DNA of 52,056 nucleotides, the filler included, from Basidiobolus ranarum (lineage: Eukaryota), in NCBI GenBank assembly GCA_040143965.1. It is 3 parts of 3 records of this genome, joined end to end, with 100 filler letters (N's around TTAATTAATTAA, not from the genome) between each part and the next. Parts side by side here need not be neighbours in the genome. Positions count along the whole stretch, not along the records: positions 1 to 17,315 come from JASJQH010000308.1; 2 more parts are not named here. One strand, given 5' to 3'. The notes under the pieces were generated by a model. That model ran no database searches, was not told the DNA's origin, and saw only the letters and a program-made list of their open reading frames with translations. Within the stretch, counting starts at the first letter, position 1; each line of letters opens with the position of its first letter. Position numbers and translations under genes: made by a program. Shown here in pieces: positions 1-17,315 of this stretch.

Positions 1-2
1 AT

Positions 3-3000
3 GGCTATGGGCCAACTGAGAACACCACTTTTTCCACTTGGTACGAAGTCAAAGAAGTGACCAATACTATTCCTATTGGTAAACCAGCTTCGAATAGTAG
101 AGCGTATGTACTCGACCAGCAGCTTCAACCGGTAGCTATTGGCAGTCTAGGTGAGCTTTATGTAGCGGGAGAGGGCCTCGCTAGAGGTTATCTCAATCAG
201 CCCAAACTGACGGCAGAGAGATTTGTTATCAACCCGAATCCTGAGTGTAATGGGGAAAGAATATACAGAACTGGGGATTTAGCTCGCTACAGAAGTGACG
301 GTAATATCGAGTTTGTGGGCCGTAGGGATCACCAAGTAAAAATCCGCGGTTATAGAATCGAGTTGGGCGAAGTTGAAAGTATCCTCATGCAACAAGAGTC
401 AATCAAGGAATGTGCAGTAATTGCACGCGATGATCCATCTGGAGAGAAACAATTGGTCGCCTATATCGTTGCCGATAGCGATTCGACATCTGGAACTGAT
501 TCCCAGAGAGAAGACTTATTTAGCGCTACATCTCGTCTACGAGAGCAATTACGTACCGTATTACCTAAGTTCATGGTTCCCAGCTTTTTTGTCTTCTTGG
601 ATTCTTTACCTCTCATGCCAAATGGTAAGATCAACAGACAAGGCTTACCGGCCCCAGACTATCAGCAATCGCTCAATACAATCGAATTCGAATCTCCCAA
701 GACAGATATTGAGTTGAGTATTGCTAAGATATTTGCTGAAGTTCTAGGGCTTGAGAAAATTAGCATTCATGATAACTTCTTTGATTTGGGAGGGCATTCG
801 TTGTCGGCAACTAAAGTGATATCTCGAATTCGTGTACAACAAAATTTGCAAGTACCTTTGAGATTACTATTTGATGCTCCAACAGTAGCATTATTAAGTG
901 AAGGAGTAAGTTTCATCAGTAAGAATTCTTCTGGAGTGCCGCAGAGCGTTTCAGGTCTAAAAAGATTAACCTCTCGTGATAAACTGCCATTGTCATTTGC
1001 ACAAGAAAGACTTTGGTTCATGGATGCTTTGATTCCGAATAGCTCACTACACAACGTCTCATTTGCTTTAAAACTTGAAGGAGACTTAAATTTGGCCGCT
1101 CTGTCACAAGCAATTCTTGATGTTGTTACTCGTCATGAAATATTACGCACAAAATTTGTTTTAATGGGCAATGAGCCCGTTCAGGTAATCGAACCAGCCA
1201 GGAAATTTACAACATCGCTTGTTGAATACATCGAAATACATGATGATCAAGCGCTAGTACAATCTGTTGTTACCGATGAATTTAGAAAACCGTTCAATTT
1301 GGCAACGGGTCCACTGATACGGGTTAAACTGATTCGTACCAAGCCTGACGAGCACGTACTTAGCATTGCAATACATCATATTGTGTCAGATGGATGGTCA
1401 ATTACTATTTTACAACGGGAATTATCGGCATTATACGAATCGTACTCTCGTGGAGAGCCTTCTACACTTCCTGAGCCGGTAATTCAGTATGCCGACTTCG
1501 CCGTATGGCAACGAAAATGGTTGCAAGGCGAAACTCTTGATTGTCAAATGAACTACTGGAAGGACCAGCTCAATGGTGTCTCCTCTTTGACTTTGCCTAT
1601 CGATTTTGTCAGACCACCTATATTGACCTATCACGCAAAATCACAACAGTTGGAACTTTCATCTTCATTCACCAATCGCTTAAAAGAATTATGCAGTATA
1701 GAATGCTCTACCCTATATATGGTGCTTCTAACAGCCTTTGAAATTTTACTTCAAAAGTGTACCGGAAATGATGATATTGCGATTGGATCTCCAATTGCCA
1801 ACCGCAACCATAAGGAGATTGAAGGTCTGATTGGTTTCTTTGTTAACATTCAGGTTATTCGAGTCCAAGTGGATCATCAACTAACATTCAGCGAACTTCT
1901 GGCACGCGTGAAGGAGGTTACTTTGGGTGCCTATAGTCATCAAGATGTGCCATTTGAACAGATTGTTGCCGAGTTACAACCGGAACGTGATCTCAGTAGA
2001 AATCCTTTGGTGCAAGTGATGTTTGCTTTGCAAGATGCTACAGTAGATGACTTCAAATTTGGTGATATTGATGTGAAGCCTGTCAGCACCGGAGAAATTG
2101 CTACCAGATTTGATCTTGAGGTACACTTCTGGAAACACGATGACGGACTGAAAGCCGAATTCATTTACAGCACAGATTTGTTCAGCTCCGATACAATAGG
2201 CAGAATGATTTCAGGCTTGGAGAAAGTGCTTCATGCTGCTGTTGAGAATCCTAATCAGCCCATAGGTACCTTACAATTGTTGGATCCCGCCGAACGGGAG
2301 CATCTACTTGTGACAATGAATATGACAGCCACTGACTATCCCCGTGATAAATCGATTGTTGATATCTTTGAGCAGCAAGTTCAGCGCACTCCAGACGCCA
2401 TATCTGTGGAGAATACTGATGAAAAGCTCACTTACCTTGAACTTCATCAAATGTCGAATAGGCTTGCATCGCACCTGGTTAGTCTTGGTGTGGAAACCGA
2501 ATCCTCCGTGGGTATTTGCATGGAACGTTCACCTCTGATGATCGTAGCTATGTTGGCAGTACTCAAGGCTGGTGGTGCGTATGTTCCATTAGATTCTCAA
2601 TACCCATCTGATAGATTGCAATTCATGACTACCGATACAAAGGCTGTCGTAGTAATTTGTCAGAAATCGACTGCTCTTGCGGTACCAGCAGGTACCCACA
2701 ATGTCTTGTGTTTGGACGAACAGATCTCGGATATTATGAAGCTGTCTGAAGAGTATGCTTCCTTACGCCCAACCTCGACAAATCTTGCTTATACAATTTA
2801 TACATCTGGTTCTACTGGAGTTCCCAAGGGCGTACTGGTGGAGCATCGCTCCGTCATCCGCCTGGTTAAAAATACGGAGTATATTAATATTCAAAATGAG
2901 GATAAGATAGCCCATATCGCTAGTACCTCTTTCGATGCTGCAACTTTTGAAGTTTGGGGAGCGCTTTTGAATGGTGCCACCATTGTGTGTATGAGTCAAC

Positions 3001-6000
3001 CTGACGTTATTGATTTGACTGTTTTATCTAGGAACATGACCAAACAAGCAGTCACTATAATTTTCTTGACTACTGCATTATTCAATCGTGTTGTGGAGGA
3101 TGCTCCTTCAGTATTTAGTCCTGTAAAACATGTTCTGTTTGGTGGTGAAGCTGTAGACCACCGATCTGTCCAAAGGTTCCTCGATTTATCAAACCGCCCA
3201 AGACTGTTGCATGTATATGGCCCCACCGAAAACACAACCTTCTCTACTTGGTACGAGGTTCACCAAATCTCTAACAATGTCCCTATTGGAAAGTCACTTT
3301 GTAATGGAAGGATATATGTACTTGATCCACAGTTTAACCCAGTTCCAATTGGATTCGTGGGTGAATTATGTCTGGCTGGCGATGGGCTTGCCAGAGGCTA
3401 CCTCAACCGTCCAGAGTTGACCTCTGAAAGATTCAAAACAAATCCCAACATAGAATGCAACGAGGAAACAATATACTGCACCGGTGATCTTGTCCGTTAT
3501 AACAGCGATGGCTATCTAGAGTTTGTTGGTCGTATGGATCATCAAGTGAAAATTCGCGGTTATAGAATCGAGTTGGGTGAAGTTGAAAACATCATTCTGC
3601 AACAAGATTCAATTAAGGAATGTGCAGTAATTGCTCGCGACGACCCATCTGGCGAAAAACAATTGGTCGCTTATGTTGTTGTAGATAGCGACTCGACCTC
3701 TGGAATGGATATTCAGCAGGTTGACGAGTGGGGTGCCGTATTTGATCAGCATGTGTATGATGAGCTCGATGAAGATTTGGCAGAACCATCTTTCAACATT
3801 ACTGGCTGGAAGTGTACTCTCACTGGTGAGGATATTCCCGCCGACGAAATGAGAGAATGGCTGCGGGATACAATTGCTGGGATCAGAAAACTGGGTGGTA
3901 ACGATATTCTTGAAATTGGTTGCGGAACTGGTATGTTGCTCTTCGAAATAGCCCCTCACTGCGCTCACTACGTTGGTACAGATGTCTCCAGTGCTGCTCT
4001 TTCTTATGTCAACAAGTATCTGGGAATGTACTCGCTTCGCGAAAAGGTCACTCTGGAAAAGAGAAGTGGCGACCAACTAGATGACATGGAAGAGGGTAGC
4101 TTCGACACTGTGATTTGTAACTCCGTGGCCCAGTATTTCCCCAACATTGACTACCTCAAGGCGGTAGTGGTGAGAGCCGTTAAGCTCTTGCGACCTGGGG
4201 GTCATATTTTCCTCGGAGATATTCGTAGTTTAGTTTTGTTAAAGCACTTCCATTCAGCTATGGAGCTCCACAAGGCGCACAATGAACTCACAGCTCCCGA
4301 GTTAGAGCAACGTATCTCAGACAGGATGATGAGTGAGAAGGAGTTGCTTGTTGACCCTGCCTTTTTCTTCGCGCTCAAAGAAGAAATCCCTGAGATTTCC
4401 CATGTGGATATTCTGACGAAAACTGGCTGTAGCATCAACGAACTCACTCAATATCGCTACCAAGTGATCATTAAGGTCGGCACTTGCGATGACAGTGAGA
4501 TTGTTGATGAGTGGGTTGACTATCAAGCAACTGGTCTAACTTTAAATGCTATTAAGAGTAAACTTCTTCAAGGAGAGACTGATCGTTATGCCATCGAAAA
4601 TATTCCCAACAGTAGATTGACTCATGAGGTGGCGCTTGTCAAATTATTAAAATCGGATCATAAGCAAGAGTTAAACGTCGCAAATATCAGACAGCTGCTT
4701 GTGGAAGGTAATTTTGCTGATGTTTCGGTTGAAGAATTATATTCTGTTAGCAAGGACTGTGGATATGATATCAATATCAGTTGGAATTGCCATGTAAACG
4801 ATGGATGCTTCGATGTAGTATTTTCCAGGAACAAACCTGGTCAAGTAACAAAATATCGCTTCAAAGAGCCGAGCTATAGTTTATGGAATTGGAAATCATA
4901 TGGTAACAACCCAATGAACGAAGCAGTAAACCAACGACTCTCACCTTATTTACGCGATTCTTTACGTACGGTGTTACCTAAGTTTATGGTCCCTAGTGCC
5001 ATTGTCATATTGGATTCTCTGCCGCTTATGCCAAATGGTAAAATCAATCGCCGAGCATTGCCCGCTCCTCACTCCCGTATAGAAGAGAATAAAAACTTTT
5101 TGTCTGCTAGAACCGCTCTTGAATTGACATTGAGTGACATTTTTGCGGAGGTACTTGGCCTCGAAAGAGTTGGAATCCTGGAAAACTTCTTTGACCTTGG
5201 TGGTCACTCATTGACAGCTACAAAAGTCATGTCTCGCATTCGCGTTGTGCTTAACCGAGAAGTACCACTGAAACTTTTGTTCGAGGCCCCTACAGTAGCG
5301 TCACTCAGTGAGAAACTAGAATCTAATATGAACATTCCCACAGAGACTAACTCCACTCCACAGTTGAGAAAACTGACTAATCGGGAAAATTTACCATTAT
5401 CTTTTGCACAAGAACGACTTTGGTTCTTGAATGAATTAATTCCCAATAGTCCCTTCTATAATATGCCGGTCTTGTTGAATTTTATGGGACAGTTGAATGT
5501 GGATGCTCTGAAAAAATCTATTCTTGATATTGTTAAGCGCCATGAATCCTTACGAACAACGTTTACACTCTCCGGTAATGAGCCCGTTCAGGTGATTAAT
5601 TCTGCGGCCAACGTTTCTTTATCATTCATTGAGTATTCCGATGTTACTCACGAGCCGGAGCTTGTGAAATCCATTATTACTCAGGAATCAGGAAAGCCAT
5701 TCAATATGGCTGAAGGCCCGCTAATTCGAGTGAACCTTGTTCGTGTGAAACCTGAGGTGCACGTCCTTATAATTGTACTTCATCACATTATATCTGATGG
5801 GTGGTCCATCACTGTTTTGCAAAAGGAGCTAGCTGCTCTGTATGAGTCCAATTCACTTGGCCTTCCGTCACCGTTGCCTGATCTAACCATCCAGTATGCA
5901 GACTTTGCTGTTTGGCAACGAGAATGGTTACAAGGAGAGACACTCAATACACAGTTGAAGTATTGGAAGGAGCAACTCAAAGATATCTCGCCGTTGATCT

Positions 6001-9000
6001 TACCAACTGACATGGTTCGTCCAGCAATTTCAAGTCATCGTGGACATCTACATAGAATATATATACCGGAATCCCTGACGCAGAAATTGCGAGAACTAAG
6101 TCAACAGCATACTACTACTCTGTTTATGACACTTTTTGCAGCATTTGGGGTTTTGCTCAATAAGTACACTGAACAAGAAGACATCGTAATTGGGTCACCT
6201 ATTGCTAGTCGTAATGTTAAGGAGATAGAAGCTTTGATTGGATTCTTTGTCAACACACTTGTACTCCGTCTGCAGATCAACTCTGGCTCAACCTTCAGTG
6301 AGATCCTGAATCAGGCTAAAGTAACTACTTTGGATGCTTCTACTTATCAGGATTTACCATTCGAAAAAATTGTAGCGGAGCTACAACCACAGCGCGACCT
6401 AAGTCTCAACCCTCTTGTTCAGGTTATATTTGCCTTACACGAGCTCTCAATTACCGACTTTGATATCAAAGATCTCAACATTGATGCCTATGAGGACCAT
6501 CAAACAACTTCTCGCTTGGATCTGGAAGTTCACATGTATCCACAAGAAAACGGTTTAAGAGCGGATATTATCTACTGTACCGACTTATTTGTTTCAAGCA
6601 CAATTGAACAGATGTTTGAAGGATTTGTTCGTATTTTGGAGTGCATAGTTATTGATCCCCAACAAAATATCGAAAATATTAGTATGCTTGATGAGACTAA
6701 GCGCCAGCATCACCTTTGCGATCGTAACCTAACTGCTACTGAATATCCACGCAACAAGTCAATAGTGGACCTCTTCGAAGATCAAGCAAGATGTCAACCG
6801 GATGCTGTGGCTGTTGTCCATGGCGATGAAAAGCTTACTTACCTTCAGCTCCATAAGTTATCCAGCCAGCTTGCAGTACATCTCATTAATCTTGGTGTTG
6901 AGCTTGAATCTTCGGTAGCCGTCTGCATGGAGCGTTCACCCCTCATGCTCGTTGCACTACTAGCTATTCTTAAAGCTGGAGGTGCATATGTTCCGTTGGA
7001 CTCTCAATACCCATCTGAAAGACTCCGCTTTATGCTTAACGACACCAATGCATCAGTGGTAATTTGTCAAAAATCCACTGTTGGTGTGCTACCGCAAGGC
7101 AATCAGAAGTTCGTATGTCTAGACACAGAGATCCACAATTTGATGAGCCAGCCTGAATTACCGATTACTGTACGTCCGAGTGCCAACAATCTAGCTTACA
7201 TCATTTACACATCTGGCTCTACCGGTACACCTAAGGGTGTTTTAGTTGAACATCGCGCGGTCGTTCGTCTTGTGAGGAATACCGAGTACGTAGATATTGG
7301 AAATGAGGACTTTATTGCCCACATAGCAAATACCTCTTTTGATGCAGTAACATTTGAAGTCTGGGGAGCTCTTCTAAATGGTGCCACTGTAGTTTGTATA
7401 AGTCATTGTGATGTAATTGATCTCAATATCTTTTCAAAGATTCTTGAGAAGCACTCTATCACACTGATGTTCCTTACTACAGCCTTATTTAATCGAATCA
7501 TGGAAGATTCACCAGAAGTGGTCAAACATTTGAAACAGCTTATAGTTGGTGGTGACGTTCTAGATCGCCGTTCTGTCAGCAAATTCCTCTCCATCCCCGA
7601 CTGCCCTAGACTTTTGAATGGCTATGGGCCAACTGAGAACACCACTTTTTCCACTTGGTACGAAGTCAAAGAAGTGACCAATACTATTCCTATTGGTAAG
7701 CCACTTTCGAATAGCAAAGCATACGTGCTCGACCAACAACTTGGCCCAGTTCCGGATGGTTTTGTTGGTGAACTCTGCGTTGCTGGTGATGGGTTAGCCA
7801 GAGGCTACCTCAATCGCCCAGAACTGACTTCTCAGAAATTCATTGTCAATCCCAATCCTGAGTGTGATGGAGAGATAATATATCGAACTGGAGATTTGGC
7901 TCGCTACAGAAGTGACGGCAATATTGAATTTATTGGACGTAGAGATCACCAAGTGAAAATCCGTGGATTTAGAATTGAAACAGATGAGATCAAGAACATT
8001 TTGCTCGAACATGAAGGCATCAAAGAGTGTGTGGTGGTTGTAAATTCAGAGGCAGATGTAAAGCGTATTATTGCGTATGTTACTAAGAGTGAGGTGGAAG
8101 TAATTGTGACCGAAAGATCTTTACTAGTATACCTTGCCAACTTGTTGCCCAACTATATGCTACCTTACGCAATTCTTATGGTGGATAATATACCTCTTTC
8201 ACCTAATGGAAAAGTAGATACCCGCTCTCTTTCAACGCTTGCTAGCCTCTCGGCACCGGAAGAGGAAACTTACGTGGAACCACAAACGCCATTAGAGATT
8301 GGCATAGCTAATATTATGGCAGATGTTCTATCTTTGGAGCGGGTTGGAGTAAATGACAATTTCTTCGACTTGGGTGGCTATTCGTTACTCTCGATTCAAT
8401 TGATCTCAAAGATTCGGAAACATTTAGGAGTAGTCATTAGTTTGCAGATACTATTCGAGGCTCCAACTGTCTTCATGTTGGCCAAGCACGCTAGTCTTCA
8501 AGCCCATGGAACTGATAATGAAGCCATTGATAGTCCAGTGGTTTTGCTACGTGATGGAGGGGATAGAACACCAATTGTCTTAGTCCATGCTATTGGCGGT
8601 GGAATATCGTGCTATCAGCCTTTGCTAAGCTGTTTGAATTATGATGGACCCATATATGGAATATACGCTTCGGACTTTTTAGGTTTAATGCACAGGAAAT
8701 CATTCTCCAGTGTTGAAGATATGGCGCAGTATTACGTTGAATCGCTAATGGAACTATCGAGAAGAAGGAGATTCATAATTGGAGGCTGGTCATACGGTGG
8801 TAACATTGCATTTGCTATTGCTGTTGCACTCCAAAAATTAGCTGTGGATGTTCCTTCGGTGGTCTTTTTCGACTCGTATCCTCTCTTTGGAGCCGAGTGC
8901 TATGAAAGATACTCAATGCCACTAACTAGGATGATTGTGAAGCTTATGAATCAAATGCATGAATCCACCGAATATTTGGATCAAGAGTTCCATATAGTAC

Positions 9001-9329
9001 GAGATCTGTTTGGACTAAGTAGCAACATCTCCAGAGATGATGAGGTGACTCTAGAACTGCTAACCAGCGCGCTCAATCGGATTTCCCACATGCGGCAATA
9101 TCAGCCAGATATGTATTCTGGTGTTGTGTATCAAATCAGAAGTTTACAGGATAAGCTGGACTATTTCGAGGATACCAGCAGCTTGCAAGAAAAATGGGCA
9201 ACACTCGTTGAAGGCAAATACATCTCCAAATCAGTCGAAGGTTCCCATGCCTCTATGATGCAAGCACCTTATGTTGAGAATACTGCATCTGAGTTGGAAA
9301 TGTTCATCGGAAGCCTATCACTTCAGTAA
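3..9329 (+). CDS. Multimodular non-ribosomal peptide synthetase, 5'-truncated by the window edge: partial A - T - C - A(with embedded N-methyltransferase) - T - C - A - T - thioesterase
   Basis: Frame is open from nt 3 (GYGPTENTTFSTW = A5 motif), with no introns. A motifs YTSGSTGxPKG, YGPTE, TGDL, QVKIRGxRIE, NGK. T motifs FFDLGGHSL (~775-803, ~5185-5213) and FFDLGGYSL (~8360-8390). C motifs HHIVSDG (1374-1394) and HHIISDG (5781-5801). MT motif LEIGCGTG (~3908-3931) within ~3715-4920. TE motif GGWSYGG (8781-8801). Confidence 0.97.
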   Translation, partial: GYGPTENTTFSTWYEVKEVTNTIPIGKPASNSRAYVLDQQLQPVAIGSLGELYVAGEGLARGYLNQPKLTAERFVINPNPECNGERIYRTGDLARYRSDGNIEFVGRRDHQVKIRGYRIELGEVESILMQQESIKECAVIARDDPSGEKQLVAYIVADSDSTSGTDSQREDLFSATSRLREQLRTVLPKFMVPSFFVFLDSLPLMPNGKINRQGLPAPDYQQSLNTIEFESPKTDIELSIAKIFAEVLGLEKISIHDNFFDLGGHSLSATKVISRIRVQQNLQVPLRLLFDAPTVALLSEGVSFISKNSSGVPQSVSGLKRLTSRDKLPLSFAQERLWFMDALIPNSSLHNVSFALKLEGDLNLAALSQAILDVVTRHEILRTKFVLMGNEPVQVIEPARKFTTSLVEYIEIHDDQALVQSVVTDEFRKPFNLATGPLIRVKLIRTKPDEHVLSIAIHHIVSDGWSITILQRELSALYESYSRGEPSTLPEPVIQYADFAVWQRKWLQGETLDCQMNYWKDQLNGVSSLTLPIDFVRPPILTYHAKSQQLELSSSFTNRLKELCSIECSTLYMVLLTAFEILLQKCTGNDDIAIGSPIANRNHKEIEGLIGFFVNIQVIRVQVDHQLTFSELLARVKEVTLGAYSHQDVPFEQIVAELQPERDLSRNPLVQVMFALQDATVDDFKFGDIDVKPVSTGEIATRFDLEVHFWKHDDGLKAEFIYSTDLFSSDTIGRMISGLEKVLHAAVENPNQPIGTLQLLDPAEREHLLVTMNMTATDYPRDKSIVDIFEQQVQRTPDAISVENTDEKLTYLELHQMSNRLASHLVSLGVETESSVGICMERSPLMIVAMLAVLKAGGAYVPLDSQYPSDRLQFMTTDTKAVVVICQKSTALAVPAGTHNVLCLDEQISDIMKLSEEYASLRPTSTNLAYTIYTSGSTGVPKGVLVEHRSVIRLVKNTEYINIQNEDKIAHIASTSFDAATFEVWGALLNGATIVCMSQPDVIDLTVLSRNMTKQAVTIIFLTTALFNRVVEDAPSVFSPVKHVLFGGEAVDHRSVQRFLDLSNRPRLLHVYGPTENTTFSTWYEVHQISNNVPIGKSLCNGRIYVLDPQFNPVPIGFVGELCLAGDGLARGYLNRPELTSERFKTNPNIECNEETIYCTGDLVRYNSDGYLEFVGRMDHQVKIRGYRIELGEVENIILQQDSIKECAVIARDDPSGEKQLVAYVVVDSDSTSGMDIQQVDEWGAVFDQHVYDELDEDLAEPSFNITGWKCTLTGEDIPADEMREWLRDTIAGIRKLGGNDILEIGCGTGMLLFEIAPHCAHYVGTDVSSAALSYVNKYLGMYSLREKVTLEKRSGDQLDDMEEGSFDTVICNSVAQYFPNIDYLKAVVVRAVKLLRPGGHIFLGDIRSLVLLKHFHSAMELHKAHNELTAPELEQRISDRMMSEKELLVDPAFFFALKEEIPEISHVDILTKTGCSINELTQYRYQVIIKVGTCDDSEIVDEWVDYQATGLTLNAIKSKLLQGETDRYAIENIPNSRLTHEVALVKLLKSDHKQELNVANIRQLLVEGNFADVSVEELYSVSKDCGYDINISWNCHVNDGCFDVVFSRNKPGQVTKYRFKEPSYSLWNWKSYGNNPMNEAVNQRLSPYLRDSLRTVLPKFMVPSAIVILDSLPLMPNGKINRRALPAPHSRIEENKNFLSARTALELTLSDIFAEVLGLERVGILENFFDLGGHSLTATKVMSRIRVVLNREVPLKLLFEAPTVASLSEKLESNMNIPTETNSTPQLRKLTNRENLPLSFAQERLWFLNELIPNSPFYNMPVLLNFMGQLNVDALKKSILDIVKRHESLRTTFTLSGNEPVQVINSAANVSLSFIEYSDVTHEPELVKSIITQESGKPFNMAEGPLIRVNLVRVKPEVHVLIIVLHHIISDGWSITVLQKELAALYESNSLGLPSPLPDLTIQYADFAVWQREWLQGETLNTQLKYWKEQLKDISPLILPTDMVRPAISSHRGHLHRIYIPESLTQKLRELSQQHTTTLFMTLFAAFGVLLNKYTEQEDIVIGSPIASRNVKEIEALIGFFVNTLVLRLQINSGSTFSEILNQAKVTTLDASTYQDLPFEKIVAELQPQRDLSLNPLVQVIFALHELSITDFDIKDLNIDAYEDHQTTSRLDLEVHMYPQENGLRADIIYCTDLFVSSTIEQMFEGFVRILECIVIDPQQNIENISMLDETKRQHHLCDRNLTATEYPRNKSIVDLFEDQARCQPDAVAVVHGDEKLTYLQLHKLSSQLAVHLINLGVELESSVAVCMERSPLMLVALLAILKAGGAYVPLDSQYPSERLRFMLNDTNASVVICQKSTVGVLPQGNQKFVCLDTEIHNLMSQPELPITVRPSANNLAYIIYTSGSTGTPKGVLVEHRAVVRLVRNTEYVDIGNEDFIAHIANTSFDAVTFEVWGALLNGATVVCISHCDVIDLNIFSKILEKHSITLMFLTTALFNRIMEDSPEVVKHLKQLIVGGDVLDRRSVSKFLSIPDCPRLLNGYGPTENTTFSTWYEVKEVTNTIPIGKPLSNSKAYVLDQQLGPVPDGFVGELCVAGDGLARGYLNRPELTSQKFIVNPNPECDGEIIYRTGDLARYRSDGNIEFIGRRDHQVKIRGFRIETDEIKNILLEHEGIKECVVVVNSEADVKRIIAYVTKSEVEVIVTERSLLVYLANLLPNYMLPYAILMVDNIPLSPNGKVDTRSLSTLASLSAPEEETYVEPQTPLEIGIANIMADVLSLERVGVNDNFFDLGGYSLLSIQLISKIRKHLGVVISLQILFEAPTVFMLAKHASLQAHGTDNEAIDSPVVLLRDGGDRTPIVLVHAIGGGISCYQPLLSCLNYDGPIYGIYASDFLGLMHRKSFSSVEDMAQYYVESLMELSRRRRFIIGGWSYGGNIAFAIAVALQKLAVDVPSVVFFDSYPLFGAECYERYSMPLTRMIVKLMNQMHESTEYLDQEFHIVRDLFGLSSNISRDDEVTLELLTSALNRISHMRQYQPDMYSGVVYQIRSLQDKLDYFEDTSSLQEKWATLVEGKYISKSVEGSHASMMQAPYVENTASELEMFIGSLSLQ

Positions 9330-10790: not shown

Positions 10791-11345
10791 CTGACCGTAA
10801 CAAAGATTATCCCGGCCATAAAAAGGATTTGCATCGAAATGAATGACTGATTGTATTAATCCAATATAAGTGCTTGGAAATACTGCTAGAAGCAGTAGAA
10901 TTTGCATCTCCTATAATATATATATATACAACTGACCTTCATGTAGCTAATAAGGTCATAGAATGACTCTCGCTTGCCTTACACAAACTCTTATTAATAA
11001 GGCAACACACACAGTAAAGTTATATATATATATATCTGATTGAAGCTTAAGCATGTATCAAATGGCCAAGGGTGCGTTTGTGCAGATAGTTCCTGCATAC
11101 GGTATTCAAATATAATCACTTTAATATGCAAAACCAAGGAGTTTACATATCCAGTAGTAGTAATATATGCGAGTACACGTGAGTATTCTTTACTAAAAAT
11201 TGATTTAAAGCGTGCTACTTCTAAGTTTTCACCATTGATTTACGTTCATCTCCAACACAATTTTATCAAGGTGGCATTTTAGTTGGCCATTAGCTCTTTG
11301 GATTTACTATAAATTTCATTCGCTGTTCTCTATCAAACGTATCAG

Positions 11346-11864
11346 ATGTTCAAACATATTGGCTTTCTTCTTTCAATCCTTGTATTGGCTATTCACGTCA
11401 TCAATGTTCAATCCGTTCAGATATTGGACATTGCTGAATGCCGTACTTGCTTTGCAGCATTAGCTCCAGGGTGTAAAGATAAGATGTCTAGTGCCGACTC
11501 CAGTTCGAGTGCTGGAACGATTGCAATGAAAGATTGCATGTGCACGAAGCAATACTTTAATACGTTTACCGCTTGTGGTACATGTTCCGCAAAGTCGATG
11601 AACTCTAACGCTGTTCCTGATCAAACTGCTTTAGATGGTCTACGTCAATCTTGCGCTACCATTGGAGCAAATGTTGATCAAAATACACCCAGCACTACGA
11701 ATAATGGGAGTAGCACCCCAAGCCCTAATGGTGGAGGCAATGGACAAAGCCAGAACAATGCAAGCAACTCCAATAATGGACGTAATGCGGGTAATACTAA
11801 GTTTGCCAATGCTCAGGAACTCCTCATGATTTTATCTTTTGCTTTGATCGCCCAACTTTATTAG
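11346..11864 (+). CDS. Small secreted Cys-rich, probably GPI-anchored cell-surface protein (CFEM-like layout)
   Basis: N-terminal hydrophobic signal (MFKHIGFLLSILVLAIHVINV), a domain with 8 Cys (CxxC...C...CxC...CxxC...C), an N/S/G-rich linker and a hydrophobic C-terminus (LLMILSFALIAQLY). Confidence 0.8.
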   Translation: MFKHIGFLLSILVLAIHVINVQSVQILDIAECRTCFAALAPGCKDKMSSADSSSSAGTIAMKDCMCTKQYFNTFTACGTCSAKSMNSNAVPDQTALDGLRQSCATIGANVDQNTPSTTNNGSSTPSPNGGGNGQSQNNASNSNNGRNAGNTKFANAQELLMILSFALIAQLY

Positions 11865-12212
11865 AGGGTTTAAATATCCTTCGAATTGCCAACATTCATT
11901 TAAGTCTCATTTATTTAAGTATTTTATCTCTTCGCGATAGAAAAAGGATTTTCACCTAAACCTAAATATATTAAAATAAACATATACCCTAATTTTACTT
12001 CGATCAAAACTTTTCAATTAATTTGACATCAGTGACACTTATCTATAAACTAGTAGTAAGATATGTGAAAGAAAAGGATATCAAACAGCCTTTCAGAGGG
12101 GACACTATTAGCTACGTATATTCTTCTACAAGAACAACCGATACTTGAATAGGTATATAAGCCTCTAAGGATCCAAGCACTACAGTAACTAAACTTCTCT
12201 GATTATATTAGC

Positions 12213-12772
12213 ATGAAGCTTTCCATCTTCTTACTTGTCTCTCTGGCAATATTTGTCTACGCTGATATTTCCATTTACGCGCCTGGTAATAATGCGATTG
12301 ATGCGGGGTCTAAGGTAGCTATTAAATGGTAAGAAAGTGGATTTATTGTTGACTATGAAGGGGCACTAAAGTTGTATTTTCATTTAGGGAAGGTGAACCT
12401 AAGAACACTACCAAATCAGTTAACTTGGATTTGATGACTGGTAGCTCTTCACATTTTACAGAAGTTAGCAAAATTACAAAAAACTTGGGTTCGGGGAATC
12501 GCTCGTTCACTTGGGAAGTTCCTAAGGATATAGCGTCCGGCCGATACGTCATTAAAATGTCAGGTAAAAAAGACGAGGCATACTATGGAAGTTATTTTGA
12601 GATCAAAAATCCGGCTCTACCTGAAAAAACCACTACTCCTGAAGCATCAAAAGAATCCAAAAAACCTGGTCAAGTGGAAAAATCCAAGAAATCTTTCGGA
12701 AATATGGTTTCCGTAGCCACCTTCAATCTTACTCTGGGTATATTTTGTTTCTCCTACTTGCTCAACCATTAA
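12213..12772 (+). CDS. Secreted Ser/Thr-rich GPI-anchored family protein (Kre9/Knh1-N-like beta-sandwich), 1 intron 12329-12387
   Basis: ATG 12213 MKLSIFLLVSLAIFVYA signal peptide. A GTAAG...TTTAG intron of 59 nt restores the frame (IKW|EGEPKNTTKSVNLDLM...FTWEVPKDIASGRYVIKM...SYFEI). Hydrophobic C-terminus. TATATAA at ~12154. Confidence 0.8.
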
Positions 12773-15165
12773 CCATACGATATGTACTTTACTCGGACGC
12801 ATCTATGTAGGAGAAGGGGGTGAAGGAGCAGGCAATGTTATATCCCAATCGTACCTCATCTATCACCAAGTCATTACTCAACTAACTTACTTCATCAAAT
12901 GATGCTTTGAAGATCGTATTTCGAAGGATTTCCTAAATTTGATATGATTAGTAAAATAAATGACGAAGTACCAGCTGATGGCATCGAATTCTTTAAATAC
13001 ATGGCTCTCAATGATTGTATTTCTTCGGTGAACCTACAATTAGAGATAAACATCAGCTGAGTATATCCGTGAATGAAGCAGCATCTATTAGGAGCAACGG
13101 CCGTTTCTTCATAGTATGGAGTAACAAATCCAGGTACCTGTACTAACTACTAAAACGTCCAGTTTGGAATGCAGGAGAGTTGTCCAACATTGAGAGGGTT
13201 GTAGTGTTCTCTATATCTGATTGTAAGCAACGAAAGCGCACGAAGATGAGCAACTACCTGAGTATCTCCTATTTGGAATGCTTTGTTTTAGATAGTGAAT
13301 TTAGTAAATGATGAAAACGAGTCGGAATTTTATTTGTGTGGTATCAACCCTATATTTACACTATTTGGTAACTTGCGGTTGGTACGAATTAACGGTTGAT
13401 CTAGTTACCCTAGATGTTATATTGAAGATATCATGGTTATTGGTCGAGGTAAATACCTGAGGGCTAGCCAGAGCTATTACCAATTTACTTGGTTGGCAAA
13501 GTCTAAAACTTACAATCTATGTCTATAATTTTTACATTCAACAAGATCTACCGCATATAGAGATCTCAGTAAAAGGCCTGCTATTCTATTTGGAATTTAG
13601 ATATCTTATGAGAGGTGAAAGGCGATATGTGTACTTGGCTCTGTTCAACTTCATTTCTATCTCGCTCAACGAAATTAAACACATAAGCTTCAACGACACC
13701 TTGTACTCGAAATAATGCCTAGAATACAAGAGCATATAAAATAGATATGCATTGTGCTATTTCTGATATATATCTGCAATCATCCTGGACACCTTAACCA
13801 AACTTGTTTTCCGCAGTTCAAAAAAGCGCCCCAAAAGAGGCTATTGCCCTACTATTTCTTATGATGACTGTTGAACATTTCTAGGCGAGCCAGTAAAAAA
13901 AGGTAGTTTGTCGACCTTCCTAGCAATCTCAACTGCATTATGGTAAACAAATCACCAGGGGTATATGGGGGATCCACCGGATAGTGATTCTGGAGAGAAT
14001 CTGATGGGAAACATTGTTTCTCTACCAGACTGAGGTGGAGAGCCAACAGAGTTGGTGAAGTGTGCGATTATCTCTCAAAGCAGAAACAAGATTAGTGCCA
14101 ACCAAAGCGTATAGCGTGGTTTCAAGCTTGGTGGGGTGTCATCAGGTTCGAAAATTTGCCCAAGTGAACCCGAATAACGGTAGTGCGGGACTCCATCTCA
14201 ACAAGACTCTTGTATATAGGCACGATACACATTGTTACCGTAATTTGAGGACCTCGCTTTTCTCGGTGGTCCCGAACTAACATTTGCAACACTGGTGTTA
14301 CTGAGATGTATTTCAAGAATATGCAACCTGCTGTTGGCAACGAGACGAGCTTTGGGTTGAGAGTTGTTTTACGTCCAATCCAGTAGCTCAATTTTGGAAT
14401 AAGCATTTAATTCGCTTGCCACTCAACAGCCATCAAGGAATGTCTCTGAAAAGTCAACAGCAGTGGCAGATCAAAACGAGTGTGTAGTAGATTGGAATGA
14501 TTTGTGTAATTCATGGGGTTGGCTAAACCAAAAGCTGAGGATGAGTCATACTGATGTTTAAACCGTTTCATGCAGGACATAAATAAGAACCACAGTCCAT
14601 CAACCAATGGGTTCTGCGGAACCATCAGTATATAACAAGCACGCGCCAGCATCTCACCCAAAGCAACTCTGAAGATATTCACTTGCAATTACCACTGTAG
14701 CCATTGTCATCGCTTCGCTTGATCAGACACTAGATTGATTCGATTCCTTTGGTTGATTTGCCACAGTCAATTAAACAAGAAACGAATTCTGAGATTGCAC
14801 CTGCATATTGTCTGTATTCCGACTACTAATCTTGCAACAAATGACAGCATTTATTCAGAAACTCTTGACATAGTTAGACATCAACCAGTTTTCACCAGGA
14901 ATTTCTATATATTCAAGCACCAGATTTGGTCACCCATTTAGCCCCTTCATCACCTGGCCCACAACACGTCTCTGCGAATTGATTACGAGGCGACCTCACG
15001 TGGAGACCGAACTAGTACCTTTTGATTCGTATACTTCAACACTTTAAAAGCTCTCTTACATACTATTCTGTTCTCTCAGCGGAAAACACAGCCACGCATA
15101 TCGATTAATTAGCTCACCATCACCCCTCCCGCTAGGTGTTCAACCTTGAACTTCAAGCCGACAAC

Positions 15166-15948
15166 ATGACGATCTATTTGAACTTGCAATGCTACAAACG
15201 ACTCTTGAGCGGACTAACTGCACACGGGAAATCCGATTTGATTCTCACTTATTTAGATACGTTACAACAGCCATTCGAGAATTTCAATTTATCTGAGGGC
15301 TCGCGCAGAATCAGAGACTTACCAAATGCTGGTGGTAACTCCATGTTCTCTGAAGTCCTCTCTTATGAACTACTGTACAGACTTTTGCCAGATTTAAATT
15401 TATTTGCCACCGAGATGGAAGTACGTTACTTTCCTAGAGGTGGGCCAATGACCGATTATTTGGTGTCGCTAAATGCCAGTCACCAAAATCAAGGTCTTCA
15501 CCCTACCATAGGGGTGTCTGTGACACGTGCCTTTGCATTTCGACGTCAATTCACCAAGTCGGATGCCCTACGTATATTACGTAAGAAATTGCTTGGGGTA
15601 ATCAAATCCACACGAACAGTAATTGGCTGTGAACTGAAGAAACAACTGCTACACATTTGGGCACCCACTGGGTCTGTGGCAAGACTAGTCAGAAGAATAT
15701 TCTGGGGACTGGAGGATGAAGTTAGATCAAATACCTTTGTTATAGTAACCGTTGTAAATAGTGATTGGGTATTCACCAGTGGGAGTACTGGGCACCCAAC
15801 CACATTGACAAAGAAACGAGCTCACTCCAGAGATCATGACACTTTAGAGCGAAGAGATGACACCAAGAATCGACCTTGGGATCGCCGCTACGCATTCAAA
15901 AACTCCTTTCGAAAATGGGTTTTCCCTTCAAATTTTCAACTGTTCTGA
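15166..15948 (+). CDS. AAC4-like protein (Dictyostelium AAC-rich mRNA clone AAC4 family), function unknown
   Basis: Motifs NAGGNSMFSE, TEMEVRYFPRGGPMTDY, IGVSVTRA, KKLLGV and KQLLHIW match my recollection of the AAC4 family. First ATG is 15166; an upstream exon via the acceptor at ~15135 is possible. Confidence 0.72.
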   Translation: MTIYLNLQCYKRLLSGLTAHGKSDLILTYLDTLQQPFENFNLSEGSRRIRDLPNAGGNSMFSEVLSYELLYRLLPDLNLFATEMEVRYFPRGGPMTDYLVSLNASHQNQGLHPTIGVSVTRAFAFRRQFTKSDALRILRKKLLGVIKSTRTVIGCELKKQLLHIWAPTGSVARLVRRIFWGLEDEVRSNTFVIVTVVNSDWVFTSGSTGHPTTLTKKRAHSRDHDTLERRDDTKNRPWDRRYAFKNSFRKWVFPSNFQLF

Positions 15949-16386
15949 AAATAAGGGTTGTTACAGTATCCTACGGAGTATCTCAGTTACCCTCTGTGCC
16001 ATCGATGTTCCTTGAAGTCGAAGAGCAACCACTTCGCGGGGCGCAGTTGTTGTCGATGTAGATATAATAGAATTGGATGTCTCTTAAGAACCCTCTTCCC
16101 TACCCTATTACTATCCTTCTCTGATATCAACGTATCTTGTACATCTCATCAATTACCTACGTTTTCAGTTTAAAGTACATATTTATAGCAACGCGTCATC
16201 CGTAAGTGTAATAATTCTTTATTAGTCTAATAACCATTAGTATTTAATCTTCAACCATGCTGTAACTTATCCTCAATCAAACTATCATATTCAGAGAACA
16301 ATCTAAGTGTAATAACACGGTAAATGGAAACATATTTTTGATACAGGTGCATATGCAAAATTCGAGAACATTAGAATTAATATAAA

Positions 16387-17315
16387 TTAGAAGTAAATAT
16401 AACATGCTGCGGATAGTGTGACGAATAAAGAGAATGCGCTCATAATAGTGATGGAGTGAACTTCACTCTTGAGGGTAGAAGTAATGTCCTTATGGCCAGA
16501 GTCCGTACCGCTGCGAGAAGTTGTATTATTTCCTTCAGCCACATGACTAGGGACTGTACTACTCATGGGGACTTCAGTCACATGCCTAATGACGGTACTA
16601 CTCATGGGGGCCTCAGTCACATGACTAGTGACGGTACTACTCATGGGGATTGAAGCAGTGCTGTGACCGCCGTGACTGACACTTGCACGGGTACTAATGC
16701 TGGTACCCTTAGTGGTGATGGAAGAACTTTTACCGGCAGATGTTAGGGTGGAAGTGGGACTGTTATCAGTGCTCTCATTGGTAGAGGTTGTACTGTTATT
16801 AGTGTTCTCTGGTTCACTAATAACACCATGATAAGTGGGAGTTACGACAGCTCCTAATCCGTTGAATTTACAATATTCTGCTTTCTCACCATTCTTCTTA
16901 TAGTATTCATTGAATATATACGAAAGACGTTGATCAGCGCTACAGCCAGCGAACTCTCCATAGACACCGTCTGTAGTATCAGCGATTGCTGCACAGGAGA
17001 TTTTTCCACACAAGAAACTATAGAAACCCTCTATTTGAGTTCCAGTAACGGTGTTACTTCCAGGTGAATAAACACATTTGAGTGAAGCAGCCATTTCAGA
17101 GCACATTTTTTTAGAAGGTGTAGGTGGAATATTTGAACTGGCAAGCCAGTTGGGACCAGCTGCTGGGCATGTGCTTGGCTTAAGATCGGATGTGTAGGCA
17201 GACATTTTCAAGACACTGGGATCAACACCGGCTAATTCATTCTTAAAATTCTGATAACAAGGTCTTTCAGTGATTGTTCCTTCAGGTCCAATTGTAACCA
17301 ATCCATAGTTATTCG
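16387..17315 (-). CDS. GH72 beta-1,3-glucanosyltransferase (Gas/Gel family), 3' part only: end of catalytic domain, X8/CBM43 Cys box, Ser/Thr tail, GPI signal
   Basis: NNYGLV...YQNFK, CP...W.AS..PPTP...C...LKC, C..I......G.YGEF.GCS..QRLSYIFNEYY...CKFNG pattern, a Ser/Thr-rich stalk and a hydrophobic C-terminus. The 5' part is lost in the gap. Confidence 0.88.
16534..16650 (-). repeat. 39-bp (13-aa) coding tandem repeat x3 in the GH72 stalk
   Basis: PMSSTVTSHVTEA / PMSSTVIRHVTEV / PMSSTVPSHVAEG. Units on the + strand start at 16541, 16580 and 16619. Confidence 0.9.

What the first reader, a model, noticed from the sequence alone, without database searches (positions are those of the whole stretch)
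3..9329. Intronless, bacterial-architecture NRPS with embedded N-methyltransferase and terminal thioesterase in a fungal genome
Seen: a >9.3-kb intron-free frame among intron-rich fungal genes. Its C domains start LPLSFAQERLWF (LCL-like), an N-MT is inserted between A8 and A9, and it ends in a TE (GWSYG). Established: Dikarya NRPSs usually end in CT or R domains, while TE release and this C-domain signature are bacterial. Bacterially derived NRPSs are reported from Basidiobolus and Mortierella. Inference: a horizontally acquired synthetase making an N-methylated, possibly cyclic peptide not yet linked to a compound. No tailoring, PPTase, MbtH or transporter gene lies on the 3' side, so it looks like a stand-alone NRPS.
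Basis: partly seen in the sequence, partly recalled or inferred. Interest (0 to 1): 0.8.

Follow-up and report, generated by a model that had tools for sequence, protein, structure and literature searches.

The report
Bacterial-like NRPS of Basidiobolus, already described
This is the tail end of a giant peptide-making enzyme gene in a Basidiobolus-like fungus; it looks bacterial, but the same gene family in this genus has already been published as a likely bacterial import, so it is real but not new.

Summary
Window 3-9329 (+) is one 3108-codon frame, open at its 5' end. It encodes (A, partial)-T-C-A(N-MT)-T-C-A-T-TE with all catalytic motifs intact.

The DNA is Basidiobolus-like. The best relatives are B. 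ranarum K7432_010368 (74.9%) and a 5332-aa B. meristosporus CBS 931.73 NRPS (64.4% over 2784 aa, one 3-aa indel). The latter's architecture fits gene model 387529. Tabima et al. 2020 (PMC7466969) described that model as tetramodular, with two N-MT domains and a TE, highly expressed and an HGT candidate. It has been tentatively, without genetic confirmation, linked to the basidiosin cyclopentapeptides.

The flanks hold eukaryotic housekeeping and cell-wall genes, and codon use matches theirs. Contamination is therefore unlikely.

The nearest non-Basidiobolus relatives of the C, A-MT and TE parts are all bacterial (24-50% identity). No donor phylum can be resolved. I could not obtain Dikarya reference sequences, so the bacterial-versus-CYCLO-clade question was not tested here.

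New details:
- The contig starts inside an 82-nt exact intragenic repeat.
- The upstream A domain is an MT-type domain that has lost its ~410-aa MT.

Verdict: a new member of a known kind, of low interest.

The parts
3..9329 (+). NRPS open reading frame. It is 5'-truncated at the window/contig edge, has 3108 codons plus a stop, and needs no intron.
   Evidence: collinear with the B. meristosporus ortholog with a single 3-aa indel
1..82 (+). Exact 82-nt copy of 7618-7699 (A5 region of the last A domain). The contig begins inside this intragenic repeat.
   Evidence: alignment; repeat family D1; contig length 17315 of P0003 equals the position just before the first N run
3..647 (+). C-terminal part (A5 to A10) of the upstream adenylation domain 'A0'. 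It has MT-type flanks, but the ~410-aa methyltransferase is absent (A8-A9 distance 76 aa).
720..902 (+). Thiolation (PCP) domain T0, GGHSL Ser at residue 266
   Evidence: Pfam PP-binding residues 240-300; motif
975..2309 (+). Condensation domain C_a, HHIVSDG at residue 458. It is an elongation type, and LCL-like by its ranking against solved structures.
   Evidence: Pfam Condensation 325-769
2358..5072 (+). Interrupted adenylation domain A_a (approximate limits from motif positions). Specificity code DAFALGVTFK (positions recalled from GrsA).
   Evidence: single-stretch match to the TioS A-MT structure 5wmm
3720..4949 (+). N-methyltransferase inserted between A8 and A9 (residues ~1240-1649). 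SAM motif EIGCGTG at residue 1304.
   Evidence: Atlas look-alikes are all bacterial methyltransferase clusters
5130..5318 (+). Thiolation domain T_a (approximate), GGHSL at residue 1733
5382..6722 (+). Condensation domain C_b, HHIISDG at residue 1927. It is the ortholog of B. meristosporus C4.
6774..8237 (+). Adenylation domain A_b (uninterrupted), code DAFAIGGTFK
   Evidence: Pfam AMP-binding 2258-2603
8304..8492 (+). Thiolation domain T_b (approximate). The motif is GGYSL (His replaced by Tyr, Ser kept).
8571..9299 (+). Type I thioesterase domain with Ser2930 (GWSYG), Asp2957 and His3082
   Evidence: Pfam Thioesterase 2857-3099; triad conservation; PDB matches Pks13 TE and Vlm2 TE
11313..17315 (.). 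Gap-free 3' flank on the same contig. It holds a small Cys-rich secreted-type ORF (11313-11861 +), a Kre9/KNH-like ORF (12359-12769 +), an unassigned ORF (15136-15945 +) and an X8-domain ORF (16390-17367 -). This is eukaryotic cell-surface context with no secondary-metabolism genes.

Best explanation
The frame is the 3' 9.3 kb of a Basidiobolus multimodular non-ribosomal peptide synthetase. It is the ortholog of the B. meristosporus NRPS described as gene model 387529 and of B. ranarum K7432_010368.

How the visible part works (inferred from domains and motifs, not assayed):
- An upstream module loads an amino acid on T0 without N-methylation.
- C_a couples it to a hydrophobic amino acid that is activated by the interrupted A_a domain and N-methylated on T_a by the embedded SAM-dependent MT.
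- C_b adds a third hydrophobic residue activated by A_b.
- The Ser-Asp-His thioesterase releases the chain, most probably by macrocyclisation, possibly after oligomerisation.
- There are no epimerisation or dual E/C functions in the visible part, so these residues should be L unless D-amino acids are supplied from outside.

Origin (inferred): the gene family entered the Basidiobolus lineage from bacteria before the three sampled species split. It was fully adapted to host codon use. It has since evolved by module duplication, gene conversion between modules, and loss of one MT domain in this lineage.

The gene is cut by the assembly at an exact intragenic repeat, so its module number is unknown.
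For: Architecture and intact motifs.

Orthology:
- 64.4% identity over 2784 aligned residues with one 3-aa indel to P0002 (B. meristosporus CBS 931.73).
- 74.9% identity over 2697 residues to P0004 (B. ranarum).
- In the C-domain tree, win_Cb+Bran_Cb+Bmer_C4 and win_Ca+Bran_Ca group together.
- The motif map of P0002 (C-A(MT)-T-C-A-T-C-A(MT)-T-C-A-T-TE) fits the published description of 387529: four A, four C, two N-MT, one TE. That model is the highest-expressed SM core gene, has coverage z -0.157, and is listed as an HGT candidate (PMC7466969, sections 13 passage, 14, 17, 20).

Fungal context:
- Chitin synthase, kinesin, TCP-1, RPS23, RPS21e, eIF3j, SBDS and Kre9/KNH lie in the same window.
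- The first 17315 bases are gap-free.
- NRPS GC3 is 0.393 against 0.398 in 11.5 kb of neighbouring exons. RSCU correlation is r 0.81, as high as between two halves of the host exons (0.78).

Bacterial affinity:
- MT region: of the 120 best rows, 3 are Basidiobolus and no other named row is fungal. The best bacterial identities are 36-42%.
- T-TE: the 3 Basidiobolus rows come first, then bacteria at 24-31% over the full length.
- C domain: of the 120 best rows only P0002 is fungal; bacterial rows are 39-48% identical.
- PDB: bacterial LgrA, TioS A-MT (500 bits, one stretch over query residues 7-901), Txo2 and TycC rank far above the fungal psoA (202 and 116 bits) and the TqaA CT domain (38 bits).
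- Named GTDB genomes: 24 bacterial interrupted A(MT) domains at 30-39% identity.

Post-acquisition evolution:
- Every Basidiobolus C, A, MT and TE domain is closer to other Basidiobolus domains than to any bacterial hit.
- The Basidiobolus rows form one clade in the MT, C and A(MT) trees, with support of 100.
- B. meristosporus modules 1 and 3 are 96-100% identical.
- A0 has MT-type flanks without the MT.
Against: - The one published tree that includes Dikarya references places the ortholog's A domains as sister to the Dikarya CYCLO (cyclosporin/beauvericin) clade, not inside a bacterial clade (PMC7466969 sections 14 and 20). Its Figure S2 and tree files are supplements that I could not open.
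- I had no Dikarya NRPS sequences, so none of my trees can separate 'bacterial' from 'old fungal'.
- My three protein searches saw only proteins of 1709-5439 aa. In some searches they scored only the candidates sharing most words, so the absence of Dikarya rows is weak evidence.
- No donor can be named. The Basidiobolus clade sits on a long branch (0.72-0.83) among mixed phyla, and the TE is only 24-31% identical to any bacterial TE.
- Composition is entirely host-like. That argues against contamination but gives no positive sign of transfer.
- Function, product and expression of this copy are untested. Its last T domain has GGYS instead of GGHS.
Confidence: 0.78

Rival explanations
1. Vertical descent. 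The gene belongs to an old fungal NRPS lineage that is sister to the Dikarya CYCLO clade (cyclosporin, enniatin, beauvericin synthetases). It kept a TE and lost its introns. Its resemblance to bacterial NRPSs reflects slow divergence of that lineage rather than transfer.
For: [quoted passage not shown]
- The interrupted A(MT) organisation is shared with those Dikarya enzymes (same paper, and my recall).
- No bacterial donor is resolved, and the clade sits on a long branch.
- Codon use is host-like.
Against: - No fungus other than Basidiobolus appears among the 120 best rows of any of the three searches.
- C and A cores are 45-50% identical to many bacterial domains.
- Release is by a TE, not by a terminal CT domain. 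The C domains score 38 bits against the fungal CT structure TqaA, versus 246-323 bits against bacterial elongation C domains.
- The same paper lists the gene among candidates with no fungal BLASTP hits and a beta-proteobacterial best hit (section 17).
- The patchy distribution, with one genus among zygomycetes, needs many losses under vertical descent.
Confidence: 0.15
2. Assembly artefact. A bacterial contaminant contig was joined to fungal DNA, so the NRPS is not in the fungal genome.
For: - The gene has no introns and bacterial-type domains.
- The contig starts inside the gene.
- The window carries N runs at 17316-17415 and 34710-34809.
- Reads could not be inspected.
Against: - There is no N between the gene and the Kre9/KNH-like and secreted-protein ORFs up to base 17315.
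- GC3 and codon use are indistinguishable from the neighbouring exons.
- Orthologs exist in two independently deposited Basidiobolus genomes.
- The published ortholog has normal coverage and fungal neighbours (PMC7466969 section 17).
- The nearest bacterial sequence is only ~40-50% identical, so no plausible contaminant is known.
Confidence: 0.02
3. Decaying relic. The copy in this species is an inactive remnant, with its MT lost from one module and its 5' end truly truncated, and it makes no product.
For: - One module has lost its MT.
- The last T domain has GGYS.
- The B. ranarum record lacks 291 aa of the last A domain, which shows that the family suffers deletions.
- The 5' end is not seen.
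Against: - 3108 codons are open.
- All catalytic motifs of C, A, MT, T and TE are present.
- The MT loss is in frame and leaves a normal-length A8-A9 linker of 76 aa, against 65 aa in the plain A domain.
- The truncation coincides with an exact 82-nt repeat at a contig end, which is typical of a short-read assembly break.
- The ortholog is strongly expressed (PMC7466969 section 13 passage).
Confidence: 0.05

Closest known systems
Basidiobolus meristosporus CBS 931.73 NRPS, P0002 (5332 aa). By its architecture it is the gene model 387529 / ORX93211.1 of Tabima et al. 2020.
   Same: - The last two modules are collinear: 64.4% identity over 2784 aa with one 3-aa indel.
- Same C-A(MT)-T-C-A-T-TE tail.
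- Same TE triad.
- Same family of specificity codes, DAFA[LMI]G[VGMI][TA]FK.
   Different: - The module upstream of C_a differs. There it is a divergent, MT-less A2-T2. Here the A0-T0 unit resembles the A(MT)-T type (A mid part 77% against 67%; T 50% against 43%) but lacks the MT.
Basidiobolus ranarum hypothetical protein K7432_010368, P0004 (2719 aa)
   Same: - It is the closest relative: 74.9% overall, MT 77%, TE 80%.
- Same order of domains in the tail.
   Different: - Its upstream module still carries the MT that the window's A0 lacks.
- Its record lacks 291 aa of the last A domain.
- It is also 5'-truncated.
Bacterial NRPSs with interrupted A domains, for example TioS A4-M of thiocoraline biosynthesis (PDB 5wmm)
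   Same: - The MT is inserted between A8 and A9.
- One continuous alignment runs over A core, MT and A C-terminal subdomain: query residues 7-901, 500 bits.
- 30-39% identity to 24 named bacterial A(MT) domains.
   Different: - The gene is eukaryotic-encoded with host codon use.
- No bacterial relative is above ~42% in the MT region.
- The Basidiobolus clade sits on a long separate branch.
Mortierella alpina MpcA/MpbA (bacterial-like cyclopentapeptide synthetases)
   Same: Both are bacterial-type multimodular NRPSs in an early-diverging fungus, with a terminal TE, host-like GC and codon use, and a proposed HGT origin (bioRxiv 10.1101/2020.08.21.262279, passages read).
   Different: - Those enzymes have dual E/C domains, no MT and nine introns each.
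- The window's C domains have no HH[ILM]xxxxGD motif.
- The window's gene has an embedded MT, and its frame needs no intron.
Dikarya CYCLO-clade synthetases (cyclosporin SimA, enniatin and beauvericin synthetases)
   Same: - N-MT domains are embedded in A domains.
- The published A-domain tree places the ortholog as their sister (PMC7466969 section 20).
   Different: - Release here is by a Ser-Asp-His TE, whereas those enzymes end in a C-like domain (my recall; the Mortierella preprint says fungal cyclisation is often done by CT domains).
- No such protein appeared in the top 120 of any search.
- There was no direct sequence comparison here.

Membership tests
Modular (type I) non-ribosomal peptide synthetase | Condensation domains with the catalytic HHxxxDG motif | tested here: met
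   Pfam Condensation E 8.9e-229, two stretches. HHIVSDG at residue 458 and HHIISDG at 1927.
Modular (type I) non-ribosomal peptide synthetase | Adenylation domains with core motifs A3-A10, including the A10 lysine | tested here: met
   Pfam AMP-binding and AMP-binding_C, three stretches each. Motif positions. Lys found in all three PxGK motifs.
Modular (type I) non-ribosomal peptide synthetase | Carrier domains with the phosphopantetheine-attachment serine | tested here: met
   PP-binding, three stretches. GGHSL at 263 and 1733, GGYSL at 2791.
Modular (type I) non-ribosomal peptide synthetase | Terminal type I thioesterase with a Ser-Asp-His triad | tested here: met
   Pfam Thioesterase 2857-3099. 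Ser2930, Asp2957 and His3082 lie in columns conserved in at least 85% of 14 TE domains.
Interrupted adenylation domain with embedded N-methyltransferase | A SAM-dependent MT inserted between A8 and A9, collinear with a solved example | tested here: met
   A8-A9 distance is 477 aa, against 65 and 76 aa in the other A domains. EIGCGTG at residue 1304. One-stretch match to 5wmm.
Basidiobolus 387529-type NRPS orthogroup | Collinear, high-identity match of the terminal modules, with orthologous placement of their C domains | tested here: met
   64.4% over 2784 aa with one indel. C-domain tree pairs win_Cb with Bmer_C4 and Bran_Cb.
Basidiobolus 387529-type NRPS orthogroup | Same module upstream of the penultimate module, and same number of modules (four) | tested here: inconclusive
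   A0-T0 is not like B. meristosporus A2-T2. (win_Ca, Bran_Ca) is sister to (Bmer_C3, Bmer_C2). The 5' end is missing, so the module number is unknown.
Basidiobolus 387529-type NRPS orthogroup | P0002 is the record ORX93211.1 / JGI 387529 | not testable with these tools
The link rests on organism name, length and domain architecture (PMC7466969 sections 14 and 20).
Dual E/C-containing bacterial-like fungal NRPS (Mortierella MpcA/MpbA type) | A second N-terminal His motif HH[I/L]xxxxGD in C domains | tested here: not met
   No match to HH[ILM]....GD anywhere in the 3108 residues. The motif is as given in bioRxiv 10.1101/2020.08.21.262279.
Dikarya CYCLO-clade NRPS | Terminal condensation-like (CT) release domain | tested here: not met
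   The protein ends in a TE. Its C domains score 38 bits against TqaA CT, versus 246-323 bits against bacterial elongation C domains.
Dikarya CYCLO-clade NRPS | A, C and MT domains group with SimA, enniatin and beauvericin synthetase domains in a tree that also holds bacteria | not tested
   No Dikarya sequence could be obtained with the tools. The published A-domain tree says 'sister to CYCLO' (PMC7466969 section 20; the supplementary figure was not seen).

The most novel reading that the evidence does not exclude
The Basidiobolus 387529-type synthetase is being re-tailored between sister species by clean, in-frame gain and loss of whole parts.

- In this species the upstream interrupted A domain has precisely shed its ~410-aa methyltransferase. 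An 11-residue-longer A8-A9 linker is left as a scar. B. ranarum keeps the MT, and B. meristosporus has an extra, unrelated module at that place.
- If the excised A domain is still active, this would be a natural 'de-interruption' of an interrupted A domain. It would predict species-specific N-methylation patterns.
- The ancestral enzyme may have been trimodular, with an oligomerising TE.
- An assembly line with few visible modules, no E domain, LCL-like C domains and embedded MTs fits poorly with the D-residue-containing cyclopentapeptides (basidiosins) it has been proposed to make. Its true product may therefore be an undescribed N-methylated peptide.
Probability: 0.3. Interest if true: 0.45.

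Novelty: new member of a known kind. Interest (0 to 1): 0.25.

Why it matters
As a discovery it adds little. Bacterial-like, intron-poor, TE-terminated NRPS genes in Basidiobolus, including the ortholog of this very gene, were reported in 2020 and are accepted as probable horizontal transfers.

Its modest value is comparative, in three ways:
- Three species now show the same synthetase with different module and MT content. This offers a natural series for asking how N-methylation patterns and module number change in an assembly line.
- It offers a way to test the unconfirmed link between this gene and the basidiosin/meristosporin peptides.
- It is a practical warning that short-read assemblies break such genes at intragenic repeats.

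Tried and rejected
- Whole genome of the window: none is held. The 5' modules, a PPTase and cluster partners could not be sought.
- Full-length protein search: it timed out and was replaced by three regional searches.
- Earlier findings of the scan: not open.
- Papers on the compounds (PubMed 32565347, 36871901): not held. I do not know whether basidiosins are N-methylated, or what Luo et al. argued.
- Search for later work: 'Basidiobolus' + 'N-methyltransferase' + 'NRPS' from 2021 found 0 papers. 'basidiosin' found 4 papers, none with genetics.
- Supplements of PMC7466969 (A-domain tree, Figure S2, cluster drawing): closed and not seen.
- Dikarya reference sequences: none appeared in any top-120 list, and no tool gives fungal sequences by name. 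The decisive Dikarya-versus-bacteria tree was therefore not built.
- Donor hunt: the single-protein scan of genome contigs found nothing. Of the 25 full-length loci I used, 24 went into the tree; L010 was dropped for 30 stops in the simple translation. No phylum came out as donor.
- Dual E/C domains: rejected.
- Contamination: rejected on composition, linkage and orthologs.
- tRNA scan of the window: no genes found.
Full report
**1. What is there**

Window bases 3-9329 on the + strand form one frame of 3108 codons. It runs off the 5' edge and ends at a TAA. Pfam finds the following, all far above their cut-offs:
- two Condensation domains;
- three AMP-binding and AMP-binding_C stretches, the first lacking its N-terminal part;
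- three PP-binding domains;
- one class I methyltransferase (residues ~1296-1432);
- one Thioesterase (2857-3099).

Motif mapping gives (A, partial)-T-C-A(MT)-T-C-A-T-TE. In detail:
- Both C domains begin with LPLSFAQERLWF (residues 328, 1797) and carry one HHxxxDG each (458, 1927).
- The dual E/C motif HH[ILM]xxxxGD, as quoted in the Mortierella preprint, is absent from the whole protein.
- The MT lies between A8 and A9. The A8-to-A9 distance is 477 residues, against 65 and 76 in the other A domains.
- The TE has Ser2930 (GWSYG), Asp2957 and His3082, in columns conserved in at least 85% of 14 aligned TE domains.

**2. Whose DNA it is**

No whole genome is held.

*Neighbours.* I scanned 36 of the 55 stop-to-stop frames of >=90 aa overlapping 9330-52056 against Pfam. 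They gave:
- a Kre9/KNH-like ORF, an X8-domain ORF, APS kinase and a DnaJ protein;
- TCP-1 chaperonin, split into two frames with about 22 unmatched codons between contiguous profile positions, as by a short intron;
- a class-2 chitin synthase and an FGGY kinase (split);
- TGT, a GH18 chitinase and a kinesin;
- RPS23, RPS21e, eIF3j and two SBDS-N ORFs;
- copia-like gag/SH3 fragments.

None is a tailoring enzyme, PPTase, MbtH protein or transporter.

*Linkage.* The window has four 44-base N runs, at 17316-17359, 17372-17415, 34710-34753 and 34766-34809. The gene is therefore joined without gaps to the ORFs up to base 17315. These include a small Cys-rich secreted-type protein and the Kre9-like protein.

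*Composition.*
- The NRPS has GC 0.427 and GC3 0.393.
- 11.5 kb of neighbouring exons have 0.440 and 0.398.
- Their RSCU values correlate at r 0.81. Two halves of the host exons correlate at 0.78.

*Relatives.*
- The closest proteins are B. ranarum K7432_010368 (P0004) and a 5332-aa B. meristosporus CBS 931.73 protein (P0002).
- Identity is 74.9% over 2697 aligned residues and 64.4% over 2784 residues, the latter with a single 3-aa indel.

The window is thus Basidiobolus-like fungal DNA, and the gene is resident in it.

**3. It is already in print**

Tabima et al. 2020 (PMC7466969; I read sections 14, 17, 20 and 23 and passages of 13) describe B. meristosporus gene model 387529 as follows:
- It is tetramodular, with four A, four C, two N-methylation domains and a TE.
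- It is the highest-expressed NRPS core gene (74 TPM).
- It sits in an antiSMASH cluster with a Zn-finger transcription factor, a carrier protein, a transporter, a peptidase and a SNARE-associated protein.
- Table 3 lists it among HGT candidates, with a beta-proteobacterial best hit and coverage z -0.157.
- Yet its A domains are placed as sister to the Dikarya CYCLO clade.

The paper also notes that HGT candidates in this genus are mostly intron-less and have host-like composition.

The motif map of P0002 is C-A(MT)-T-C-A-T-C-A(MT)-T-C-A-T-TE. Only ~122-124 residues lie between each A10 and the next C1 motif, so there is no room for E domains. This fits that description.

On the product:
- The same paper says Luo et al. 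2020 hypothesised that this gene makes the basidiosin cyclopentapeptides, and that the link needs genetic confirmation.
- A 2024 paper states that basidiosins A-L and meristosporins A-C are the only characterised Basidiobolus metabolites. It describes them as cyclic pentapeptides with D and L residues (PMC10964425, passage).
- The compound papers themselves are not held.
- Searches for later genetic work found none. 'basidiosin' gave 4 papers. 'Basidiobolus' + 'N-methyltransferase' + 'NRPS' from 2021 gave 0.

A 2025 preprint adds 19 short-read Basidiobolus genomes rich in NRPS clusters (10.1101/2025.03.31.646025, passages).

**4. Bacterial or fungal ancestry**

Every search I could run points to bacteria.

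*MT region* (residues 1230-1720; 2048 proteins with E<=0.001 among 2887 scored; best 120 listed):
- 3 of the 120 rows are Basidiobolus.
- The rest are bacterial or unnamed metagenomic at 32-42% identity. Named ones include Acidobacteriota, Chloroflexota, cyanobacteria, actinomycetes and myxobacteria.

*T-TE* (631 proteins with E<=0.001 among 3308 candidates; best 120 listed):
- The Basidiobolus rows come first.
- Next is a Verrucomicrobiae MAG at 30%, then other bacteria at 24-31% over the full length.

*C domain* (7999 of 8000 scored; best 120 listed):
- Only P0002 is fungal.
- Bacterial rows are 39-48% identical.

*Solved structures:*
- For the A(MT)-T stretch, LgrA scores 665 bits over several stretches. 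The TioS interrupted A-MT domain scores 500 bits in one stretch over query residues 7-901. The first fungal entry, psoA, scores 202 bits.
- For the C domain, the scores are Txo2 323, Txo1 319, DhbF-type 5u89 265, TycC 246, SrfA-C 143, TycB 120, psoA 116 and TqaA CT 38 bits.

*Atlas:* the look-alikes of the MT are all bacterial clusters, which is a lead only.

*Named genomes:* the best matches among GTDB genomes are Herpetosiphonaceae (39%), Nostoc, Pyrinomonadaceae, Stigonema, Thermoanaerobaculia and Sorangium (38%).

*Trees:* the Basidiobolus rows form one clade with support of 100, on a long branch (0.72-0.83). No phylum stands out as sister.

*Limits.*
- The searches covered only proteins of 1709-5439 aa.
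- In two of the three searches, only the candidates sharing most words were scored.
- I could obtain no Dikarya NRPS sequence.

I put HGT at about 0.78 and old vertical descent at about 0.15.

**5. Evolution inside the genus**

All Basidiobolus domains are closer to one another than to any bacterial hit:

| Domain | Among Basidiobolus | Best bacterial |
|---|---|---|
| C | 52-69% | <=48% |
| A core | 58-71% | <=50% |
| MT | 68-77% | <=41% |
| TE | 57-80% | <=27% |

All eight Basidiobolus C domains fall on one side of a branch against the 55 best bacterial C stretches. The modules therefore multiplied, or were homogenised, after the lineage separated from its bacterial relatives.

*Homogenisation.* In B. 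meristosporus, modules 1 and 3 are 96-100% identical in A and 99% identical in T.

*The upstream module.*
- The window's tail is orthologous to B. meristosporus modules 3 and 4, but the unit upstream is not its module 2.
- A0 and T0 resemble the A(MT)-T type. The A mid part is 77% identical, against 67% to A2. T is 50%, against 43%.
- (win_Ca, Bran_Ca) is sister to (Bmer_C3, Bmer_C2).

*The lost MT.*
- A0 has the flanks of an interrupted A domain. IKECAVIARDDPSGEKQLVAY, DSDSTSG and LRTVLPKFMVPS are shared with A_a.
- The ~410-aa MT is missing, and about ten unrelated residues stand in its place.
- B. ranarum keeps an MT there (start of P0004).
- The simplest reading is an in-frame loss of the MT in this lineage. 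The polarity is inferred from two of three species.

**6. Why the gene is cut**

The first 82 bases of the window are identical to 7618-7699 in the last A domain. After that, the copies fall to about 75-80% identity.

The database's own record of this protein (P0003, 2980 aa, starting at the first Met) sits on a contig of 17315 bases. That is exactly the distance from window base 1 to the first N run. The window therefore starts at a contig end that lies in an exact intragenic repeat. This is the usual signature of a short-read assembly break, not of a truncated gene.

The module number is unknown. The missing part could be as little as a starter C plus the front of A0, or it could be several modules.

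**7. Likely mechanism and product**

*Shown:* domain order and intact motifs.

*Inferred:*
- The specificity-conferring residues are DAFALGVTFK (A_a) and DAFAIGGTFK (A_b). Those of the B. meristosporus domains are DAFA[ML]G[VMI][TA]FK.
- The positions were taken by motif anchoring from my recollection of GrsA numbering. The resemblance to bacterial Val/Ile-type codes is also recalled, not computed.
- The visible line should therefore join X, then N-Me-(aliphatic), then (aliphatic), all L, and release the chain by the TE.
- The TE's full-length PDB matches include the oligomerising, cyclising Vlm2 TE at a weak 43 bits, so iterative use cannot be excluded.
- An E-less line with few visible modules and embedded MTs is not an obvious fit for D-containing cyclopentapeptides. 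I have not seen the basidiosin structures or Luo's argument, so this is a caution and not a refutation.

**8. Verdict**

The finding is real and well observed. Its explanation is essentially right, but it rediscovers a published case in a sister species.

The new details are the lineage-specific MT loss, the different upstream module and the repeat-caused assembly break. They are of interest mainly to people working on NRPS evolution or on Basidiobolus metabolites.

Noticed in passing
window 17316-17359, 17372-17415, 34710-34753, 34766-34809: Four runs of exactly 44 N, in two pairs, each pair enclosing 12 real bases. The pairs lie 17394 bases apart. They may be scaffold gaps or masked stretches. 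The first coincides with the end of the 17315-base contig on record for the NRPS protein.
   Followed up: partly
window 49790-51062 (+): Fragments of a copia-type retroelement (Pfam gag_pre-integrase and SH3_retrovirus) lie in the most AT-rich part of the window (GC about 0.34).
   Followed up: no
window 44899-45378 and 45756-46217 (+): Two neighbouring ORFs each carry an SBDS N-terminal domain, which suggests a tandem duplicate of that gene or of its first exon.
   Followed up: no
window 41556-43757: A tight group of translation genes: RPS23 (41556-42005 +), RPS21e (42518-42817 +) and eIF3 subunit j (43131-43757 -).
   Followed up: no
window 22993-24459 (+): The TCP-1 chaperonin gene is interrupted by an in-frame stop. 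About 22 unmatched codons lie between contiguous Pfam profile positions 169 and 170. This fits a short intron of roughly 60-70 nt.
   Followed up: partly
P0002 (B. meristosporus), residues ~480-1490 versus ~3010-4020: Modules 1 and 3 of the B. meristosporus ortholog are nearly identical: A N-part 96%, A mid part 100%, T 99%, and the MT branch lengths in the tree are about 0. This indicates a very recent duplication or gene conversion inside the gene.
   Followed up: partly
P0004 (B. ranarum), at the position of window residues 2221-2512: The B. ranarum record lacks 291 residues, covering the end of the last C domain and the front of the last A domain. It could be a real deletion, a collapsed repeat or a gene-model error.
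   Followed up: no
window 8373-8387 (residues 2791-2795): The last carrier domain reads GGYSL where the other two, and both orthologs, read GGHSL. The attachment serine is kept.
   Followed up: no
window 15136-15945 (+): A 270-codon frame has no Pfam match at E<=0.001 and lies between the Kre9-like and X8-domain ORFs. Whether it is coding is unknown.
   Followed up: no
window ~9395-9405: An AATAAA hexamer lies about 70 bases after the NRPS stop codon, inside an AT-rich flank (GC 0.37 for 9330-11312). It is compatible with a eukaryotic 3' end but is not evidence for one.
   Followed up: no
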